64,000 nt of DNA from Escherichia coli. Lineage in GTDB: Bacteria > Pseudomonadota > Gammaproteobacteria > Enterobacterales > Enterobacteriaceae. Positions 44,799 through 56,677 of the stretch are shown here, in pieces (position 1 is the stretch's first letter; each line of letters opens with the position of its first letter). Location: assembly GCF_044324785.1 (NCBI RefSeq), contig NZ_CP172127.1; one strand, 5' to 3'. A program made the position numbers and the translations under genes. The notes beneath the pieces are model-generated. The model saw only the letters and a program-made list of their open reading frames with translations, ran no database searches and was not told where the DNA came from.

Positions 44799-45272
44799 TT
44801 ATTGCCGCCACGGCATGACAGGAACCGCGCTAATCGCGTTTTTCGGCGAACCTTCTACAACTTTGTCGGAGTAAGCCAGATAAGCGAGCGCGTTGCGTTT
44901 GGCGTCATAAAAGCGCACGACCTGTAACGACTTAAAGACCAGGGACGTGCGTTTTTTGAATACTACCTCGCCCTGAGCTTTGCCGTTTTTAATACGATCC
45001 GACAGTTCAATCGGCCCGACTTGCTGACAAGAAATGGCCGCATCGGAGGTATCTTCCGCCAGACCCAATCCCCCTTTAATACCACCGGTTTTCGCCCGGC
45101 TCACATAACAGGTGACATTTTTCACATCGGGATCGTCAAAGGCTTCCACAACAATTTTGTGATCCGGGCCGATCATTTTAAATACGGTGTCGACCGAACC
45201 AATCTCTTCTGCATGAGCCAATGGCCCCAGCATTATCAGGCTTAAAGACAGGATCAAATGCTTGTATTTCAT
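44799..45272 (-). CDS. creA: Periplasmic protein CreA
   Basis: 157-aa secreted ORF upstream of creB. Confidence 0.85.
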
Positions 45273-50120: not shown

Positions 50121-51788
50121 GTGGCTCAATTCGTTTATACCATGCATCGTGTCGGCAAAGTTGTTCCGCCGAAACGTCATATTTTGAAAAACATCTCTCT
50201 GAGTTTCTTCCCTGGGGCAAAAATTGGTGTCCTGGGTCTGAACGGCGCGGGTAAGTCCACCCTGCTGCGCATTATGGCGGGCATTGATAAAGACATCGAA
50301 GGCGAAGCGCGTCCGCAACCGGATATCAAGATTGGTTATCTGCCGCAGGAACCGCAGCTGAACCCGGAACACACCGTGCGTGAGTCCATTGAAGAAGCGG
50401 TTTCTGAAGTGGTTAACGCCCTGAAACGCCTGGATGAAGTGTATGCGCTGTACGCCGATCCGGATGCCGATTTTGACAAGCTGGCCGCTGAACAAGGCCG
50501 TCTGGAAGAGATCATTCAGGCTCACGACGGTCACAACCTGAACGTTCAGCTGGAGCGTGCGGCGGATGCGCTGCGTCTGCCGGACTGGGACGCGAAAATC
50601 GCTAACCTCTCCGGTGGTGAGCGTCGTCGCGTGGCGTTGTGCCGCCTGCTGCTGGAAAAACCAGACATGCTGCTGCTCGACGAACCGACCAACCACCTGG
50701 ATGCCGAATCCGTGGCCTGGTTGGAACGCTTCCTGCACGACTTCGAAGGCACCGTGGTGGCGATTACCCACGACCGTTACTTCCTTGATAACGTTGCAGG
50801 CTGGATCCTCGAACTGGACCGCGGTGAAGGTATTCCGTGGGAAGGCAACTACTCCTCCTGGCTGGAGCAGAAAGATCAACGTCTGGCGCAGGAAGCTTCA
50901 CAAGAAGCTGCGCGTCGTAAGTCGATTGAGAAAGAGCTGGAGTGGGTACGTCAGGGAACTAAAGGCCGTCAGTCGAAAGGTAAAGCACGTCTGGCGCGTT
51001 TTGAAGAGCTGAACAGCACCGAATATCAGAAACGTAACGAAACCAACGAACTGTTTATTCCACCAGGACCGCGTCTTGGCGATAAAGTGCTGGAAGTCAA
51101 CAACCTGCGTAAATCCTATGGCGATCGTCTGCTGATTGATGACCTGAGCTTCTCGATCCCGAAAGGAGCGATCGTCGGGATCATCGGTCCGAACGGTGCG
51201 GGTAAATCGACCCTGTTCCGTATGATCTCTGGTCAGGAACAGCCGGACAGCGGCACCATCACTTTGGGTGAAACGGTGAAACTGGCATCGGTTGATCAGT
51301 TCCGTGACTCAATGGATAACAGCAAAACCGTTTGGGAAGAAGTTTCCGGCGGGCTGGATATCATGAAGATCGGCAACACCGAGATGCCAAGCCGTGCCTA
51401 CGTTGGCCGCTTTAACTTTAAAGGGGTTGATCAGGGTAAACGCGTTGGCGAACTCTCCGGCGGTGAGCGCGGTCGTCTGCATCTGGCGAAGCTGCTGCAG
51501 GTTGGCGGCAACATGCTGCTGCTCGACGAACCAACCAACGACCTGGATATCGAAACCCTGCGCGCGCTGGAAAACGCCCTGCTGGAGTTCCCGGGCTGCG
51601 CGATGGTTATCTCGCACGACCGTTGGTTCCTCGACCGTATCGCCACGCACATTCTGGATTACCAGGATGAAGGTAAAGTTGAGTTCTTCGAAGGTAACTT
51701 TACCGAGTACGAAGAGTACAAGAAACGCACGCTGGGCGCAGACGCGCTGGAGCCGAAGCGTATCAAGTACAAGCGTATTGCGAAGTAA
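50121..51788 (+). CDS. ettA: Energy-dependent translational throttle protein EttA (ABC-F ATPase)
   Basis: 555-aa ORF MAQFVYTMHRVGKVVPPKRHILKNISLSFFPGAKIGVLGLNGAGKSTLLRIMAGIDKD; two ABC domains; intact. Confidence 0.97.
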   Translation: MAQFVYTMHRVGKVVPPKRHILKNISLSFFPGAKIGVLGLNGAGKSTLLRIMAGIDKDIEGEARPQPDIKIGYLPQEPQLNPEHTVRESIEEAVSEVVNALKRLDEVYALYADPDADFDKLAAEQGRLEEIIQAHDGHNLNVQLERAADALRLPDWDAKIANLSGGERRRVALCRLLLEKPDMLLLDEPTNHLDAESVAWLERFLHDFEGTVVAITHDRYFLDNVAGWILELDRGEGIPWEGNYSSWLEQKDQRLAQEASQEAARRKSIEKELEWVRQGTKGRQSKGKARLARFEELNSTEYQKRNETNELFIPPGPRLGDKVLEVNNLRKSYGDRLLIDDLSFSIPKGAIVGIIGPNGAGKSTLFRMISGQEQPDSGTITLGETVKLASVDQFRDSMDNSKTVWEEVSGGLDIMKIGNTEMPSRAYVGRFNFKGVDQGKRVGELSGGERGRLHLAKLLQVGGNMLLLDEPTNDLDIETLRALENALLEFPGCAMVISHDRWFLDRIATHILDYQDEGKVEFFEGNFTEYEEYKKRTLGADALEPKRIKYKRIAK

Positions 51789-51943: not shown

Positions 51944-52831
51944 TTATTCACCGCGCAGGATCTGGCGGAAATGGGAAACCAGCGGACGTTGGTTGGCTTT
52001 ATGCCAGGCTGCCCATAATTGCGTTGAATAATTCATCCACGGCAATTCACGTAATACCACCCCTTCCGGCGCATTATGACGCAGACTATGTTGAATTAAG
52101 GCCAGACCTAATCCCGCAGCGACCAGACCTAATGCCGTGAGGGGTTCACCCGCTTCCAGGCGAATATCAGGATTAAACCCGGCGTTAACACAGGCGGCGA
52201 CAAAATGATCGCGAGAATGCGCATCGTCGTTATGAATCACCGCAATCCACTGCTCATCGCCAAGTTGTGACGCGACAAGGTTTTCCTCCTGCGCCAGAGG
52301 ATGATTTTGCGGTAAGGCCAACAACATTCGATCATCCAGAACCTGAATATATTCCAGATCCTGCTCGCTGTCGGCGGGCGGCGTATCGACCAGAGAAAAA
52401 TCGAGACTGCGCTGGCGCAGGCCTTCAATCTGGGTAGCCGGTGGTTGGCTGTAAAGTGCGATATGCACATTCGGACGCGATACACGTAACGTACGTAGCG
52501 CCGTAGAAAGCACACCGGAATGCATGGCGTTTTCGATATAGCCAATACACAAGCCACCATCTTCCCCCCGTCCCAGGCGTTTGCCTAACGACTCCAGGCG
52601 GTTGGCGTGTGTCAGCAACGAACGTGTTTCGGCAAGGAATGTCTGTCCATCAGCGGTCAGGCGAATGCGCTGCTGATTACGCTCAAACAGCGTCAGCCCC
52701 AGCCGTTCTTCCAGTTGTGCAATCTGGCGGCTCAGCGGTGATTGCGAGATATGTAATCGCTCGGCTGCGCGTCCCACGTGCTCTTCTTCTGCGACCACCA
52801 CGAAGTACTTCAGTTGGCGTAAATCAATCAT
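51944..52831 (-). CDS. LysR-family transcriptional regulator
   Basis: ORF 51944..52924; canonical LysR N-terminus from internal Met MIDLRQLKYFVVVAEEEHVGRAAERLHISQSPLSRQIAQLEERLG (295 aa); divergent from the adjacent oxidoreductase genes. Confidence 0.85.
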   Translation of the reverse strand: MIDLRQLKYFVVVAEEEHVGRAAERLHISQSPLSRQIAQLEERLGLTLFERNQQRIRLTADGQTFLAETRSLLTHANRLESLGKRLGRGEDGGLCIGYIENAMHSGVLSTALRTLRVSRPNVHIALYSQPPATQIEGLRQRSLDFSLVDTPPADSEQDLEYIQVLDDRMLLALPQNHPLAQEENLVASQLGDEQWIAVIHNDDAHSRDHFVAACVNAGFNPDIRLEAGEPLTALGLVAAGLGLALIQHSLRHNAPEGVVLRELPWMNYSTQLWAAWHKANQRPLVSHFRQILRGE

Positions 52832-52896
52832 GTTAGACCTCAAAGGACTTAAGTCAGACGAATTATGTCCTATCAAGTCACAACCTCGCAAGGTAT

Positions 52897-52912
52897 TGTG
52901 ATCCACGTCACA
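52897..52912. promoter_or_regulatory. Perfect TGTGA-N6-TCACA palindrome in the LysR/AKR divergent promoter region
   Basis: TGTGATCCACGTCACA in the 133-bp intergenic region; fits the CRP half-site consensus and also a T-N11-A LysR-type box. Confidence 0.3.
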
Positions 52913-52964
52913 GGGCGATAGCAAAAAAACGCCCTAACCCAAACCGAATAATTGAGGACATCTT

Positions 52965-53975
52965 ATGAGCATCAAAAATTTACTTCCCGGCAAAATTGGC
53001 TTAGGTGGCGCACCACTCGGCAACATGTTCCGTGCCATTCCGGAAGACGAGGCCCACGCCACCGTGAGCGAAGCCTGGAACCTGGGCGTGCGTTACTTTG
53101 ATACCGCGCCGCTGTACGGCTCTGGCCTTTCTGAAATCCGCATGGGTGAAGCGCTGTCTCAGTATCCACGCGATGAATACGTTCTGAGCAGCAAAGTCGG
53201 TCGCATCATGCTGGACGAAATGGAAGATCCGGCAAAACGTGATTTCGGTGAAAAAGGTGGCCTGTTCGAACACGGCCTGAAAAACAAAATTCTGAATGAC
53301 TACTCTGCTGACGCCACGCTGCGCTCGATTGAAGACAGCCTGAAACGCCTGAAAACAGACCGTCTGGATATTGTCTGGATCCATGACCCGGCGCAGGACT
53401 TCTACGGTGACAGCTGGCTGGAACAGTTCAACATTGCCCGTACCGGTGCGTTTCGTGCGCTGACGCGTTTGCGTGACGAAGGTGTGATTAAAGCCTGGGG
53501 ACTGGGTGTGAATCGCGTCGAACCTTGCGAACTGACGCTGGCGCTGGACGAACCGAAGCCGGATGCGTTCCTGCTGGCGGGGCGTTATTCCCTGCTGGAT
53601 CACGAACGTGCGCTGCAACGCCTGATGCCAGAAGCACTGGAACAGAACGTGGATATTGTTGTGGGCGGTCCGTACAGCTCTGGCGTACTGGCAGGCGGCG
53701 AGCACTTTGAATATCAGAAAGCTTCTGCGGCCATCCAGCAGAAAGTGGCGCAAATTAACACCATTGCCACACGTTTCAATGTGAACGTTAAAGCAGCTGC
53801 GCTGCAGTTCGCACTGGCAAACCCGGCCGTTGCGGCGGTTATTCCTGGCTCCAGCCGTCCTGGCCGTATGGCAGAAGATCTGGCTGCACTGAATGCGCCT
53901 GTTCCGGCTGAATTCTGGGCAGAAATGCGCCGTCAAAATCTGGTTGCGGAAAACGCTCCGCTGCCGACCCGTTAA
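52965..53975 (+). CDS. Aldo/keto reductase family oxidoreductase
   Basis: 336 aa, MSIKNLLPGKIGLGGAPLGNMF...YFDTAPLYGSG; AKR fold motifs. Confidence 0.85.
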   Translation: MSIKNLLPGKIGLGGAPLGNMFRAIPEDEAHATVSEAWNLGVRYFDTAPLYGSGLSEIRMGEALSQYPRDEYVLSSKVGRIMLDEMEDPAKRDFGEKGGLFEHGLKNKILNDYSADATLRSIEDSLKRLKTDRLDIVWIHDPAQDFYGDSWLEQFNIARTGAFRALTRLRDEGVIKAWGLGVNRVEPCELTLALDEPKPDAFLLAGRYSLLDHERALQRLMPEALEQNVDIVVGGPYSSGVLAGGEHFEYQKASAAIQQKVAQINTIATRFNVNVKAAALQFALANPAVAAVIPGSSRPGRMAEDLAALNAPVPAEFWAEMRRQNLVAENAPLPTR

Positions 53976-53994
53976 TCAACCTGGTGAGAAAACG

Positions 53995-54792
53995 ATGAAA
54001 CTGGATCTGACAGGTAAAGTCGCGGTAGTCAGCGGCTCAACCTCCGGCATTGGGCAGGGTATCGCCGCCGGACTGGCAAAAGCAGGCGCAACGGTGGTTG
54101 TCGTCGGCCGTAAACAGCGCGGCGTTGATGACGCCATGGCTGCGATTGCGGCACAAACTCCCACGGCGTCACTGCGTGGCGTGGTGGCCGACCTCAGCAC
54201 CGAAGACGGCGTGGCTGCGCTGATCGCTGCAGTCCCAACGGCTGATGTGCTGGTCAATAATCTGGGCATTTTTAACGATAAAGATTTCTTTAGCGTTCCG
54301 GATGATGAGTGGATGCACTTCTATAACGTCAACGTCCTCTCCGGCGTTCGTCTGGCGCGTCACTATGCGCCAGGCATGACGGAACAGGGCTGGGGGCGGA
54401 TTATCTTTGTCTCGTCCGAATCCGGCGTGGCAATCCCTGGCGACATGATCAACTACGGCGTCACCAAAGCCGCGAATCTGGCGGTTTCTCATGGTCTGGC
54501 GAAACGACTGGCGGGGACCGGTGTGACCGTCAACGCCATTCTGCCAGGGCCAACCTTTACCGATGGCCTGAAAGAGATGCTGGCGGATGCCGCTGCACAA
54601 TCGGGACGCAGTGCGCGTGAACAGGCCGATGAGTTTGTTAAAACCTCGCGTCCGAGCTCCATCATCCAGCGTGCGGCGGATGTGGAAGAAGTGGCGAATC
54701 TGGCGGTTTATCTCGCGTCACCGCTTTCCTCGGCAACCACAGGGGCAGCCCTGCGCGTCGATGGTGGCGTCGTCGACACCCTGACTATGTAA
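53995..54792 (+). CDS. Short-chain dehydrogenase/reductase (SDR)
   Basis: ORF 53893..54792; start MKLDLTGKVAVVSGSTSGIGQGIA (TGxxxGxG Rossmann motif) preceded by GGTGAG; 265 aa. Confidence 0.85.
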   Translation: MKLDLTGKVAVVSGSTSGIGQGIAAGLAKAGATVVVVGRKQRGVDDAMAAIAAQTPTASLRGVVADLSTEDGVAALIAAVPTADVLVNNLGIFNDKDFFSVPDDEWMHFYNVNVLSGVRLARHYAPGMTEQGWGRIIFVSSESGVAIPGDMINYGVTKAANLAVSHGLAKRLAGTGVTVNAILPGPTFTDGLKEMLADAAAQSGRSAREQADEFVKTSRPSSIIQRAADVEEVANLAVYLASPLSSATTGAALRVDGGVVDTLTM

Positions 54793-54817
54793 CCCTATAA
54801 ATTAAGAGAAAATTATC

Positions 54818-55234
54818 ATGGCTAAAACAACTGTATCGATCGAAATTCCGGCTTCTGCCGACGCCGTATGGCAATTGATGGGCGGCTTTGATGCGCTGCC
54901 AGACTGGCTGCCGTTCATCCCGAAAAGCGTGGTGACAGAAGGCGGTCGCGTTCGTTCGCTGACAACCTCTGACGGCGGCACTGTGGTTGAACGTCTGGAA
55001 GCGTTTGATAACCGTCAACGCAGTTATACCTATTCCATTATTCAAGCACCGTTCCCAGTGGTGGATTACCTCTCCACCATTACCGTTCATGAAACCGCCG
55101 ACAGCCAGGTTTCCCGTGTGGAATGGTTCGGTGAATTCACCCCGGTGAATGTGACGAACGAAGAGGCCGAAGCGCTGTTTACCGGCATCTATCGGGATGG
55201 TCTCAAGGCGCTGAAGGACAACTTTGTTGCCTGA
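54818..55234 (+). CDS. SRPBCC-superfamily (polyketide cyclase / Bet v1-like) protein
   Basis: 138 aa; family assignment from overall sequence character, moderate certainty. Confidence 0.6.
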   Translation: MAKTTVSIEIPASADAVWQLMGGFDALPDWLPFIPKSVVTEGGRVRSLTTSDGGTVVERLEAFDNRQRSYTYSIIQAPFPVVDYLSTITVHETADSQVSRVEWFGEFTPVNVTNEEAEALFTGIYRDGLKALKDNFVA

Positions 55235-55628: not shown

Positions 55629-55838
55629 TTTGCTAAATATGCGCTGAATGCGTTGCCATTAAAAAACCGTATTGTAATGCCACCGATGACACGTTCCCGT
55701 GCGGGTGACGTTGCGACTGACATGATGGCGGACTATTACGCGCAGCGCGCTAGTGCAGGACTTATCATCAGCGAAGGTACGCAAATCAGCAGAAGCGCTG
55801 CGCATAATTTTCCACGGCCCGCTGATTTACTCCGGTAA
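55629..55838 (+). pseudogene. Remnant of an Old-Yellow-Enzyme (NemA-like) NADH:flavin oxidoreductase gene
   Basis: Frame encodes PLKNRIVMPPMTRSR...MMADYYAQRASAGLIISEGTQIS, resembling an OYE N-terminus, then loses similarity and stops; no in-frame ATG. Confidence 0.55.
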
Positions 55839-55916: not shown

Positions 55917-56677
55917 AGCACCGAATATCAGAAACGTAACGAAACCAACGAACTGTTTATTCCACCTGGACCGTGTCTGGGCGACAAAGTGCTGGAAGTC
56001 AGCAACCTGCGTAAATCCTATGGCGATCGTCTGCTGATTGACTCCCTGAGCTTCTCGATCCCGAAAGGAGCGATCGTCGGGATCATCGGTCCGAACGGTA
56101 CGGGCAAATCGACGTTGTTCCGTATGATCTCTGGTCAGGAACAGCCGGACAGCGGCACCATCACTCTGGGTGAAACGGTGAAACTGGCATCGGTTGATCA
56201 GTTCCGTGACTCAATGGATAACCGCAAAGCCGTTTGGGAAGAAGTTTCCGGCGGGCTGGATATCATGAAGATCGGCAACACCGAGATGCCAAGCCGCGCC
56301 TACGTTGGCCGCTTTAACTTTAAGGTAAACGCGTTGGTGAACTTTCCGGTGGTGAGCGCGGTCGTCTGCATCTGGCGAAGCTGCTGCAGGTTGGCGGCAA
56401 CATGCTGCTGCTCGACGAACCAACTAACGACCTGAATATCGAAACCCTGCGCGCGCTGGAAAACGCCCTACTGGAGTTCCCGGGCTGTGCGATGGTTATC
56501 TCGCACGACCGTTGGTTCCTCGACCGTATCGCCACGCACATCCTGGACTACCAGGATGAAGGTAAAGTTGAGTTCTTCGAAGGTAACTTTACCGAGTACG
56601 AAGAGTACAAAAAACGCACGCTGGGCGCAGACGCGCTGGAGCCGAAGCGTATCAAGTACAAGCGTATTGCGAAGTAA
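55917..56677 (+). pseudogene. Truncated, frameshifted second copy of the ettA 3' half
   Basis: Matches ettA from about 51015 onward with scattered substitutions and a 13-bp deletion near 56320 that breaks the frame; no 5' half. Confidence 0.85.

What the first reader, a model, noticed from the sequence alone, without database searches (positions are those of the whole stretch)
52897..52912. Perfect TGTGA-N6-TCACA site between the LysR gene and the oxidoreductase operon
TGTGATCCACGTCACA is a perfect match to both CRP half-sites and also has LysR-type T-N11-A dyad symmetry. It sits centrally in the 133-bp divergent promoter region, suggesting catabolite control and/or the LysR operator of the cassette.
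Basis: seen in the sequence. Interest (0 to 1): 0.35.

Follow-up and report, generated by a model that had tools for sequence, protein, structure and literature searches.

The report
CRP-type operator over an operon promoter
The perfect TGTGA-N6-TCACA palindrome is real, scores like the best known CRP (cAMP receptor protein) sites and is kept by selection in enteric relatives. It is not the LysR regulator's operator, and it lies on the predicted start of the oxidoreductase operon, so CRP more likely blocks transcription there than activates it.

Summary
TGTGATCCACGTCACA is at 52897-52912, in the 133-bp gap between a LysR-type regulator gene (LTTR; ATG at 52831, minus strand) and an aldo/keto reductase (AKR)-SDR-SRPBCC operon (ATG 52965). 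The cassette lies between ettA and nadR in 482 of 5426 complete E. coli genomes.

A weight matrix built from 107 ChIP-seq CRP sites gives the site 19.4 of 21.9 bits, above 104 of those 107 sites. About 0.002 such hits are expected per 64 kb.

Of 78 orthologous LysR/AKR gene pairs, 11 keep both half-sites at exactly 65 nt from the lysR ATG: Escherichia, Trabulsiella, Yokenella, Klebsiella, Raoultella and Yersinia. In this clade the spacer varies and only 9% of four-fold sites are invariant. The other 67 pairs have no CRP-like site (below 10 bits), yet their LysR DNA-binding helix is identical. The LysR operator is therefore more likely the universally conserved block at 52835-52879.

The palindrome contains no T-N11-A dyad. 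Bases invariant in all lineages define two overlapping divergent promoters:
- the operon promoter, with -10 TATTGT at 52894-99 and a predicted start near 52906;
- the lysR promoter, with -10 CATAAT and -35 TTGCGA on the minus strand and a predicted start near 52855.

The CRP site is therefore centred near -1.5 of the operon promoter and -49.5 of the lysR promoter. Neither is an activating position. Repression by occlusion is the best inference, but it is untested. This is a new member of a known kind, of modest interest.

The parts
52897..52912 (.). CRP-type palindrome TGTGA-TCCACG-TCACA (the 22-bp CRP frame would be 52894-52915, TATTGTGATCCACGTCACAGGG)
   Evidence: sequence; unique in the window. 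(19.4 of 21.9 bits; next best hit in the window 13.0). (P = 3.3e-8 per position). (kept in 11 enteric-clade loci at a fixed 65 nt from the lysR ATG; spacer varies).
52894..52899 (+). Predicted -10 hexamer TATTGT of the AKR-SDR-SRPBCC operon promoter. It overlaps the left half-site by 3 nt and predicts a transcription start near 52906.
   Evidence: T52894 97%, A52895 100% and T52899 100% conserved across 72 distinct intergenic sequences, while the middle positions vary (TATTGT, TAATGT, TATATT, TATCTT, TAGGAT, TACGAT). This is the TAnnnT pattern expected of a sigma-70 -10 element. The start site is inferred, not mapped.
52870..52875 (+). Predicted weak -35 (CTATCA in E. coli, TTGGAC in Pseudomonas), 18 bp upstream of the -10
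   Evidence: Pseudomonas loci read TTGGAC-N18-TAGGAT in the same register. Inference; a weak -35 is typical of activator-dependent promoters.
52862..52891 (-). lysR promoter: -35 TTGCGA (52891-52886), 18-bp spacer, -10 CATAAT (52867-52862); predicted start near 52855
   Evidence: the only promoter-like match in 52700-53100, 9 of 12 positions. (CAA at 52889-91 and ATTATG at 52862-67 conserved 96-100% in all lineages).
52835..52879 (.). Universally conserved block (AGACCT-N4-GGACTyAAGT-N7-ATTATGTCyT-N5-GTC) with GAC/GTC triplets in roughly 10-bp phase. Candidate LTTR operator (RBS+ABS, the recognition and activation binding sites), spanning about -71 to -27 of the predicted operon start and +20 to -24 of the lysR start.
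   Evidence: information content near 2 bits at these columns over 72 sequences. (LysR wHTH invariant in all 78 loci, so its operator should be conserved in all). Assigning the block to the LTTR is inference from the usual LTTR footprint geometry (established knowledge).
52912..52935 (+). Hairpin AGGGCG-N12-CGCCCT directly downstream of the palindrome, probably at the 5' end of the operon mRNA
   Evidence: -9.2 kcal/mol, z = -3.5 for E. coli. A hairpin at the same offset but with different stem sequences is present in most lineages; mean z over 70 sequences is -1.2. Covariation was seen by eye only. RNAalifold on a MAFFT alignment did not recover it.
51944..52831 (-). LysR-type transcriptional regulator, 295 aa
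   Evidence: HTH_1 plus LysR_substrate domains; RefSeq WP_000566334.1.
52965..55234 (+). Operon: aldo/keto reductase (52965-53975), SDR oxidoreductase (53995-54792), SRPBCC/polyketide-cyclase-like protein (54818-55234)
   Evidence: (the LysR/AKR/SDR/SRPBCC order is kept in at least 70 of 81 loci, from Pseudomonas to Escherichia). (closest solved AKR structures are L-galactose dehydrogenases).

Best explanation
The palindrome is a genuine, selectively maintained CRP-type (cAMP receptor protein) operator. It was added in one enteric allele lineage on top of an older LysR-controlled divergent promoter pair that is widespread in the gamma-proteobacteria. The LysR protein most likely binds the universally conserved block at 52835-52879, not the palindrome.

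The palindrome covers the last 3 nt of the operon's predicted -10 hexamer and its predicted start, spanning about -9 to +7 with its centre near -1.5. cAMP-CRP bound there should therefore exclude RNA polymerase or prevent promoter opening. That would make CRP a repressor or gate of the AKR-SDR-SRPBCC operon, which would be expressed only when the LysR inducer is present and cAMP is low.

Shown: the sequence, the matrix score, the conservation pattern, the absence of the site in other lineages, and the invariance of the LysR DNA-binding domain. Inferred: the start-site positions (from conserved -10/-35 bases), CRP occupancy, and the direction of the effect.
For: - Matrix built from 107 in-vivo ChIP-seq sites (Table 1 of PMC4287617): the site scores 19.4 of 21.9 bits, higher than 104 of the 107. 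About 0.17 such sites are expected per 5 Mb of random sequence.
- The GTGA/TCAC core is CRP-type, not FNR-type TTGA/TCAA (established knowledge).
- Eleven orthologous loci keep both half-sites at exactly 65 nt from the lysR ATG, while the distance to the AKR ATG varies from 52 to 69 nt.
- In that clade only 9% of four-fold sites are invariant, yet all 10 half-site columns are. Spacer columns 52902, 52904 and 52905 vary.
- The site is intact in the most divergent E. coli alleles.
- 67 of 78 loci have no CRP-like site (best below 10 bits), although the LysR wHTH is invariant.
- TAnnnT at 52894-99 and the minus-strand TTG and CATAAT are invariant in all lineages. They fix two overlapping divergent promoters.
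- With the operon start near 52906, the conserved block sits at about -71 to -27, the usual LTTR footprint.
- A hairpin recurs just downstream in most lineages, which suggests that transcription starts at or before about 52912.
- A published review states that CRP-family proteins repress when bound downstream of the usual activating positions (PMC10187061).
Against: - No transcription start site is mapped. Both starts are predicted from conserved hexamers, and the operon -35 is weak (3 of 6). The simple promoter scan did not report the plus-strand promoter.
- No binding data exist. The one E. coli strain whose CRP ChIP-seq table I read (H10407) lacks the cassette.
- CRP acts as an activator far more often than as a repressor, and LysR-type regulators are often co-activated by CRP.
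- The 3' flank of the site is GGG rather than the preferred A/T-rich flank.
- Invariance of spacer positions C52903, C52906 and G52907, and of flanking bases, shows that constraints other than CRP also act on this stretch.
- Serratia, Ewingella, Providencia and Xenorhabdus also have CRP but lack the site.
Confidence: 0.45

Rival explanations
1. Classical catabolite activation. cAMP-CRP bound at the palindrome activates the oxidoreductase operon, the lysR gene or both, as a Class I or Class II activator, possibly together with the LysR protein.
For: The site is of top quality, intergenic and roughly central in a divergent region. CRP is usually an activator, and CRP plus LysR-type co-activation is known at other E. 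coli operons (recalled: dsdXA, tdc). The AKR resembles sugar 1-dehydrogenases (L-galactose dehydrogenase), which would suit catabolite control.
Against: - For a Class II promoter the start would be near 52946, with a -10 near 52934-40. That stretch reads CTAACC/TAACCC, is GAACCC in other E. coli alleles, and varies across the clade.
- A Class I position (-61.5) would put the start on the ATG.
- Relative to the conserved lysR promoter the site is at about -49.5, abutting but not overlapping the -35. Spacing studies did not find this position to be activating (recalled knowledge).
- The site keeps a fixed distance to the lysR-side elements, not to anything downstream.
Confidence: 0.2
2. The palindrome is bound by the cassette's own LysR-type regulator, as its operator or as a low-affinity activation site (ABS).
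For: It lies in the LysR/operon intergenic region. Its right half, CACGTCACA, is a 9-nt near-repeat of CAAGTCACA (52874-82), which lies inside the conserved block 30 bp away. Its GTC is in 10-bp phase with the conserved GTC triplets at 52867 and 52877.
Against: - The site is absent from 67 of 78 orthologous loci, although LysR residues 12-45 are invariant in all.
- There is no T-N11-A dyad.
- It lies at about -9 to +7 of the predicted regulated promoter, outside the usual LTTR footprint of about -80 to -20.
- The upstream copy of the repeat is itself not conserved where the palindrome is (TCCTA in Yersinia, TCATA in Klebsiella).
Confidence: 0.08
3. The sequence is conserved for reasons other than CRP: promoter discriminator or start-site context, the 5'-UTR structure, or another unidentified dimeric regulator. 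CRP binding would then be incidental or without regulatory effect.
For: Much of the intergenic region is conserved in the enteric clade, including spacer positions and flanks that CRP does not need. Many strong CRP sites in E. coli have no measurable effect on transcription (general knowledge). The right half-site abuts a conserved hairpin.
Against: - The variable columns fall at the central spacer positions that CRP does not read, while all 10 core positions are fixed.
- In lineages without the site the same stretch is free to vary, so the promoter itself does not require these bases.
- A chance match at this score is expected 4e-6 times in 133 bp.
Confidence: 0.2

Closest known systems
Canonical CRP (CAP) sites of E. 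coli, consensus AAATGTGATCTAGATCACATTT (e.g. the ChIP-seq sites upstream of ycfQ/bhsA, yibI, maa and mtlA in PMC4287617, Table 1)
   Same: Perfect TGTGA-N6-TCACA core with a 6-bp spacer, T at position 6 and C at position 7. The score is within the range of the 8 perfect-core in-vivo sites (16.5-21.5 bits; this site 19.4). It is intergenic.
   Different: It is not at an activating distance from either predicted start. The 3' flank is GGG instead of T-rich. It lies in an accessory cassette absent from K-12 and H10407, so no binding data exist.
CRP-repressed promoters where the site overlaps or lies downstream of the core promoter (recalled: cyaA P2, spf/Spot 42; pck at high cAMP-CRP, cited in PMC10187061)
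   Same: The CRP dimer is predicted to lie over the -10/+1 region, where it would compete with RNA polymerase.
   Different: Here the target is an activator-dependent (LysR-type) promoter, and both the start site and the repression are predictions.
LysR-type divergent promoter regions co-regulated by CRP (recalled: dsdC-dsdXA, tdcA/tdcABC, hcaR)
   Same: A divergent LysR gene and target operon with a CRP site in the shared control region.
   Different: In those systems CRP is an activator bound upstream of the core promoter. Here it is predicted to lie on the start site.
ilvY-ilvC type overlapping divergent promoters (recalled)
   Same: The LTTR gene and its target are transcribed from overlapping, back-to-back promoters with starts about 50 bp apart. 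The LTTR operators lie over the regulator's own promoter and the -35 region of the target.
   Different: There is no known homology between the operators. The architecture here is inferred from conservation only.

Membership tests
CRP (CAP) binding site | 16-bp core TGTGA-N6-TCACA with G:C at the discriminating positions (GTGA/TCAC, not FNR-type TTGA/TCAA) | tested here: met
   perfect core with a 6-bp spacer.
CRP (CAP) binding site | Weight-matrix score in the range of sites bound in vivo | tested here: met
   19.4 bits against a median of 13.1 for 107 ChIP-seq sites; only 3 score higher. P = 3.3e-8 per position.
CRP (CAP) binding site | Conservation of the half-sites, with a free central spacer, in orthologous control regions | tested here: met
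   11 loci from 6 genera. All 10 core columns are invariant, against 9% invariant four-fold sites. Three spacer columns vary.
CRP (CAP) binding site | cAMP-dependent binding of CRP in vitro or in vivo | not testable with these tools
   The strain used for ChIP-seq in the paper read here (H10407) lacks the cassette.
CRP-activated promoter (Class I/II) | Site centred near -41.5 (Class II) or -61.5/-71.5/-82.5/-92.5 (Class I) from a transcription start | tested here: not met
   the conserved -10/-35 elements predict starts near 52906 (+) and 52855 (-), which places the site at about -1.5 and -49.5. No -10-like hexamer lies at the Class II distance. Both starts are predicted, not mapped.
LysR-type regulator operator (RBS) | T-N11-A (13-bp) interrupted dyad | tested here: not met
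   the dyad has even length (T-N14-A, T-N10-A). No T in the 16-mer has an A twelve bases downstream.
LysR-type regulator operator (RBS) | Conserved wherever the cognate regulator's DNA-binding domain is conserved | tested here: not met
   the wHTH is invariant in 78 loci, and the palindrome is absent from 67 of them.
LysR-type regulator operator (RBS) | Located around -65 of the regulated promoter and overlapping the regulator's own promoter | tested here: not met
   the palindrome is at about -1.5 of the predicted operon start and upstream of the lysR -35. The block at 52835-52879 fits this criterion instead. The start sites are predicted.

The most novel reading that the evidence does not exclude
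An ancient LysR-controlled AKR-SDR-SRPBCC module, found across the gamma-proteobacteria, acquired a near-perfect CRP operator exactly over its transcription start. This happened in one allele lineage that then spread among Enterobacteriaceae and Yersinia. Its effect would be to turn cAMP-CRP into a repressor that gates an inducer-dependent oxidoreductase operon, giving inverse catabolite control: the operon is on only when carbon is plentiful. This would be a clean natural example of a global regulator being 'plugged in' to a horizontally mobile cassette by a few point changes in the -10/+1 region.
Probability: 0.35. Interest if true: 0.4.

Novelty: new member of a known kind. Interest (0 to 1): 0.25.

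Why it matters
If correct, the site adds an uncharacterised accessory operon, present in about 9% of complete E. coli genomes and in several other enteric genera, to the CRP regulon, probably as a negatively controlled target. It also gives a well-defined pair of natural alleles for studying how a global regulator site is overlaid on an existing local circuit. One allele carries the CRP site and the other does not, while the LysR operator and core promoter are the same in both. The result does not change what is known about CRP or LysR-type regulators, and the function of the operon remains unknown.

Tried and rejected
- LysR operator and T-N11-A reading: rejected on dyad geometry, absence from 67 of 78 orthologous loci and an invariant wHTH.
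- Class II or Class I activation of a downstream operon promoter: no conserved -10-like hexamer at the required distance. Class I would put the start on the ATG.
- Activation of lysR: the site is at about -49.5 from the conserved minus-strand promoter. Alternative minus-strand -10 candidates at the Class I/II distances were read by eye and are poor.
- Existing CRP ChIP-seq evidence: the H10407 table has no peak there because the strain lacks the cassette.
- Known RNA family for the palindrome or hairpin: Rfam finds nothing at E <= 1.
- RNAalifold on a MAFFT alignment of 17 leader regions: the alignment misplaces the hairpin across lineages, so the result is uninformative.
- FNR, CRP-S (Sxy-dependent) and LacI-type operators: considered and rejected on half-site sequence and spacing (GTGA not TTGA; TGTGA not TGCGA; N6 not N4/N5). 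This rests on recalled consensus sequences.

Full report
OBSERVATION. The sequence TGTGATCCACGTCACA is at 52897-52912, exactly as reported. It is the only perfect TGTGA-N6-TCACA in the 64-kb window. Dinucleotide-preserving shuffles give a mean of 0.09 matches, and 9 of 100 shuffles contain one. With one mismatch allowed there are 3 matches against 1.8 expected.

The flanking genes are a LysR-type regulator (51944-52831, minus strand, 295 aa) and an aldo/keto reductase (52965-53975). These are followed by an SDR oxidoreductase (53995-54792), an SRPBCC/polyketide-cyclase-like protein (54818-55234) and a small DUF1471 protein. The intergenic region is 133 bp (52832-52964), and the site centre at 52904.5 is about 6 bp from its midpoint.

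The palindrome has even length, so its symmetric pairs are T-N14-A, G-N12-C, T-N10-A, G-N8-C and A-N6-T. No T in it has an A twelve bases downstream. It therefore has no T-N11-A dyad.

CONTEXT. The window is E. coli. The cassette lies between ettA and nadR in 482 of 5426 complete E. coli genomes, and the site is intact in the most divergent E. coli alleles. ETEC H10407 lacks the cassette, and the CRP ChIP-seq peak table I read comes from that strain. No binding data therefore apply to this locus.

CRP MATRIX. I built a symmetrised 16-bp weight matrix from the 107 site sequences listed for 111 ChIP-seq CRP targets in Table 1 of Haycocks et al. 2015 (PMC4287617). The site scores 19.4 bits of a possible 21.9. 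That is higher than 104 of the 107 in-vivo sites (median 13.1) and lies within the range of the eight perfect-core sites in the table (16.5-21.5). The next best hit in the window scores 13.0. Exact enumeration of the score distribution gives P = 3.3e-8 per position. The expected numbers of hits are 0.002 per 64 kb, 4e-6 in this intergenic region and 0.17 per 5 Mb.

COMPARATIVE EVIDENCE. A scan of one genome per species returned 80 loci encoding relatives of the AKR. In 78 loci (77 of these plus E. coli strain N3, L001) the LysR gene is divergent and adjacent. The LysR/AKR/SDR/SRPBCC order holds from Pseudomonas, Acinetobacter and Duganella to Escherichia.

The loci split cleanly into two groups:
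- Eleven loci carry TGTGA-N6-TCACA at exactly 65 nt from the lysR ATG, with matrix scores of 16.4-19.4. They are E. coli (3), E. whittamii, two Trabulsiella, Yokenella, a Klebsiella MAG, Raoultella and two Yersinia. AKR identity to the window is 90-100%. The distance from the site to the AKR ATG varies from 52 to 69 nt.
- The other 67 loci have no CRP-like sequence anywhere in the intergenic region; the best score is below 10 bits. They are Serratia, Ewingella, Providencia, Xenorhabdus, Acinetobacter, Pseudomonas and Duganella.

Within the ten distinct enteric-clade loci only 9% of four-fold degenerate sites are invariant (23 of 258). All ten half-site columns are nevertheless invariant, and spacer columns 52902, 52904 and 52905 vary. 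This is the pattern expected of a protein that reads two half-sites and ignores the centre. Other parts of the region are also conserved, so CRP is not the only constraint acting there.

NOT THE LysR OPERATOR. LysR residues 12-45, which include the helix-turn-helix, are invariant in all 78 loci, and 58-65 of the first 66 residues are identical. The regulator's operator should therefore be conserved in all lineages.

The sequence that is conserved in all lineages is a block next to the lysR start: AGACCT (52835-40), GGACTyAAGT (52845-54), ATTATGTCyT (52862-71) and GTC (52877-79). Information content is near 2 bits over 72 distinct sequences. GAC/GTC triplets recur in this block at roughly 10-bp phase. 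The palindrome is missing from 67 loci, lacks the T-N11-A geometry and lies outside the usual LysR-type footprint. One weak link to the LysR block exists: a 9-nt near-repeat (CAAGTCACA at 52874-82 and CACGTCACA at 52904-12). However, the upstream copy is itself not conserved in Yersinia or Klebsiella.

PROMOTER ARCHITECTURE (inferred). The same 72-sequence profile shows invariant bases at the positions that matter for sigma-70 promoters.
- Minus strand: TTG of a -35 element (CAA at 52889-91, 97-100% conserved) and CATAAT (52867-62, 96-100%). These make up the TTGCGA-N18-CATAAT promoter, the only match found by the consensus scan. They predict a lysR start near 52855.
- Plus strand: T52894 (97%), A52895 (100%) and T52899 (100%), with free middle positions (TATTGT, TAATGT, TATATT, TATCTT, TAGGAT, TACGAT). 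This is a TAnnnT -10 element. It is preceded at 18 bp by CTATCA in enterics and TTGGAC in Pseudomonas. It predicts an operon start near 52906.

These two promoters overlap back to back, with starts about 51 bp apart. The universally conserved block then spans about -71 to -27 of the operon promoter. That is the normal LysR-type footprint, and it also covers the lysR -10 and early transcribed region, as expected for autoregulation (established knowledge of the family).

Directly downstream of the palindrome there is a hairpin, AGGGCG-N12-CGCCCT (52912-35; -9.2 kcal/mol, z = -3.5). Most other lineages have a hairpin at the same offset with different stem sequences (mean z = -1.2). This suggests that the stretch is transcribed, which would place the start at or before about 52912. 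The support is soft. RNAalifold on a MAFFT alignment did not recover the hairpin, and Rfam has no match.

MECHANISM. With these starts the CRP site is centred at about -1.5 of the operon promoter, covering the last 3 nt of the -10 hexamer and the start. It is centred at about -49.5 of the lysR promoter, abutting the -35. Neither is a Class I or Class II activating position.

A Class II promoter downstream would need a -10 near 52934-40. That stretch reads CTAACC/TAACCC, reads GAACCC in other E. coli alleles and varies across the clade. A Class I position would put the start on the ATG.

The best-supported reading is therefore that cAMP-CRP occludes the LysR-dependent operon promoter. CRP-family proteins are known to repress when bound downstream of the usual activating positions (review PMC10187061). 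I put 0.45 on this complete statement. The weaker claim that the site is a functional CRP site I put at about 0.7. Classical activation gets 0.2, conservation for non-CRP reasons or binding without effect 0.2, and LysR binding 0.08.

COMPARISON AND NOVELTY. The site meets every sequence-level criterion of a canonical CRP site. It fails the positional criterion for CRP-activated promoters and all three tested criteria for a LysR operator. It is a new member of a known kind: a predicted CRP site in an uncharacterised accessory cassette. The modestly interesting aspect is evolutionary. A global-regulator site was overlaid on the start site of an old, widely distributed LysR-controlled module in a single allele lineage, which then spread among enteric genera. 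The function of the operon is unknown. The closest solved relatives of the AKR are L-galactose dehydrogenases, and I found no literature on the module.

LIMITS. No start site, binding or expression data exist for this locus. The direction of regulation rests entirely on promoter elements inferred from conservation.

Noticed in passing
window 51015-51788 and 55917-56677: The roughly 4.1-kb cassette (LysR, AKR, SDR, SRPBCC, DUF1471 and a short NemA/OYE-like gene fragment at 55653-55838) is bracketed by roughly 760-bp direct repeats of the 3' part of ettA. The second copy is 96-97% identical, carries a 13-nt deletion and is frameshifted. This looks like a scar of how the cassette was inserted or exchanged. 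Strain N3 shows no second ettA copy in its annotation.
   Followed up: partly
window 52912-52935 (and the same offset in L005-L081): A hairpin, AGGGCG-N12-CGCCCT, lies directly after the palindrome. Other lineages have a hairpin at the same distance from the conserved TAnnnT but with different stems: GGGCAGT/ATTGCCC in Klebsiella, GGGAT/ATCCC in Raoultella, GGCAG/CTGCC in Acinetobacter, CAGGA/TCCTG in Providencia and GGTCA/TGACC in Pseudomonas. It may be a conserved 5'-UTR stem-loop. There is no Rfam match, and the covariation was not formally tested.
   Followed up: partly
window 52835-52879: A block conserved in all 72 distinct intergenic sequences, from Pseudomonas to E. coli, with GAC/GTC triplets in roughly 10-bp phase (GAC at 52836, 52846, 52857; GTC at 52853, 52867, 52877). 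It includes an imperfect dyad, AGACCT-N3-AGGACT, centred at 52842, which is about -64 of the predicted operon start. It is the likely LysR operator, but individual sites were not resolved.
   Followed up: partly
L007-L011 (Yersinia, Klebsiella, Raoultella, Trabulsiella odontotermitis), about 20-35 nt upstream of the AKR ATG: These relatives carry an extra short hairpin (for example CTCCCGATACGGGAA or TTCCCAAAACGGGAA) between the first hairpin and the ribosome-binding site. It is missing from E. coli, T. guamensis and Yokenella, and it accounts for the 13-17 nt difference in intergenic length.
   Followed up: no
window 14459-14474, 62424-62439, 45111-45126: Weaker matches to the CRP matrix: TTTGATAGTCCTCACA (13.0 bits), CGTGACCAACCTCACC (11.7 bits) and GGTGACATTTTTCACA (11.3 bits). 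They are at or somewhat below the median of in-vivo sites. Their gene context was not examined.
   Followed up: no
L004 (contig labelled MAG: Collinsella sp.): A 1.4-kb contig binned as Collinsella (Actinobacteria) is 100% identical to the E. coli LysR/AKR region, including the site. This is almost certainly a binning contaminant rather than a real Collinsella sequence.
   Followed up: no
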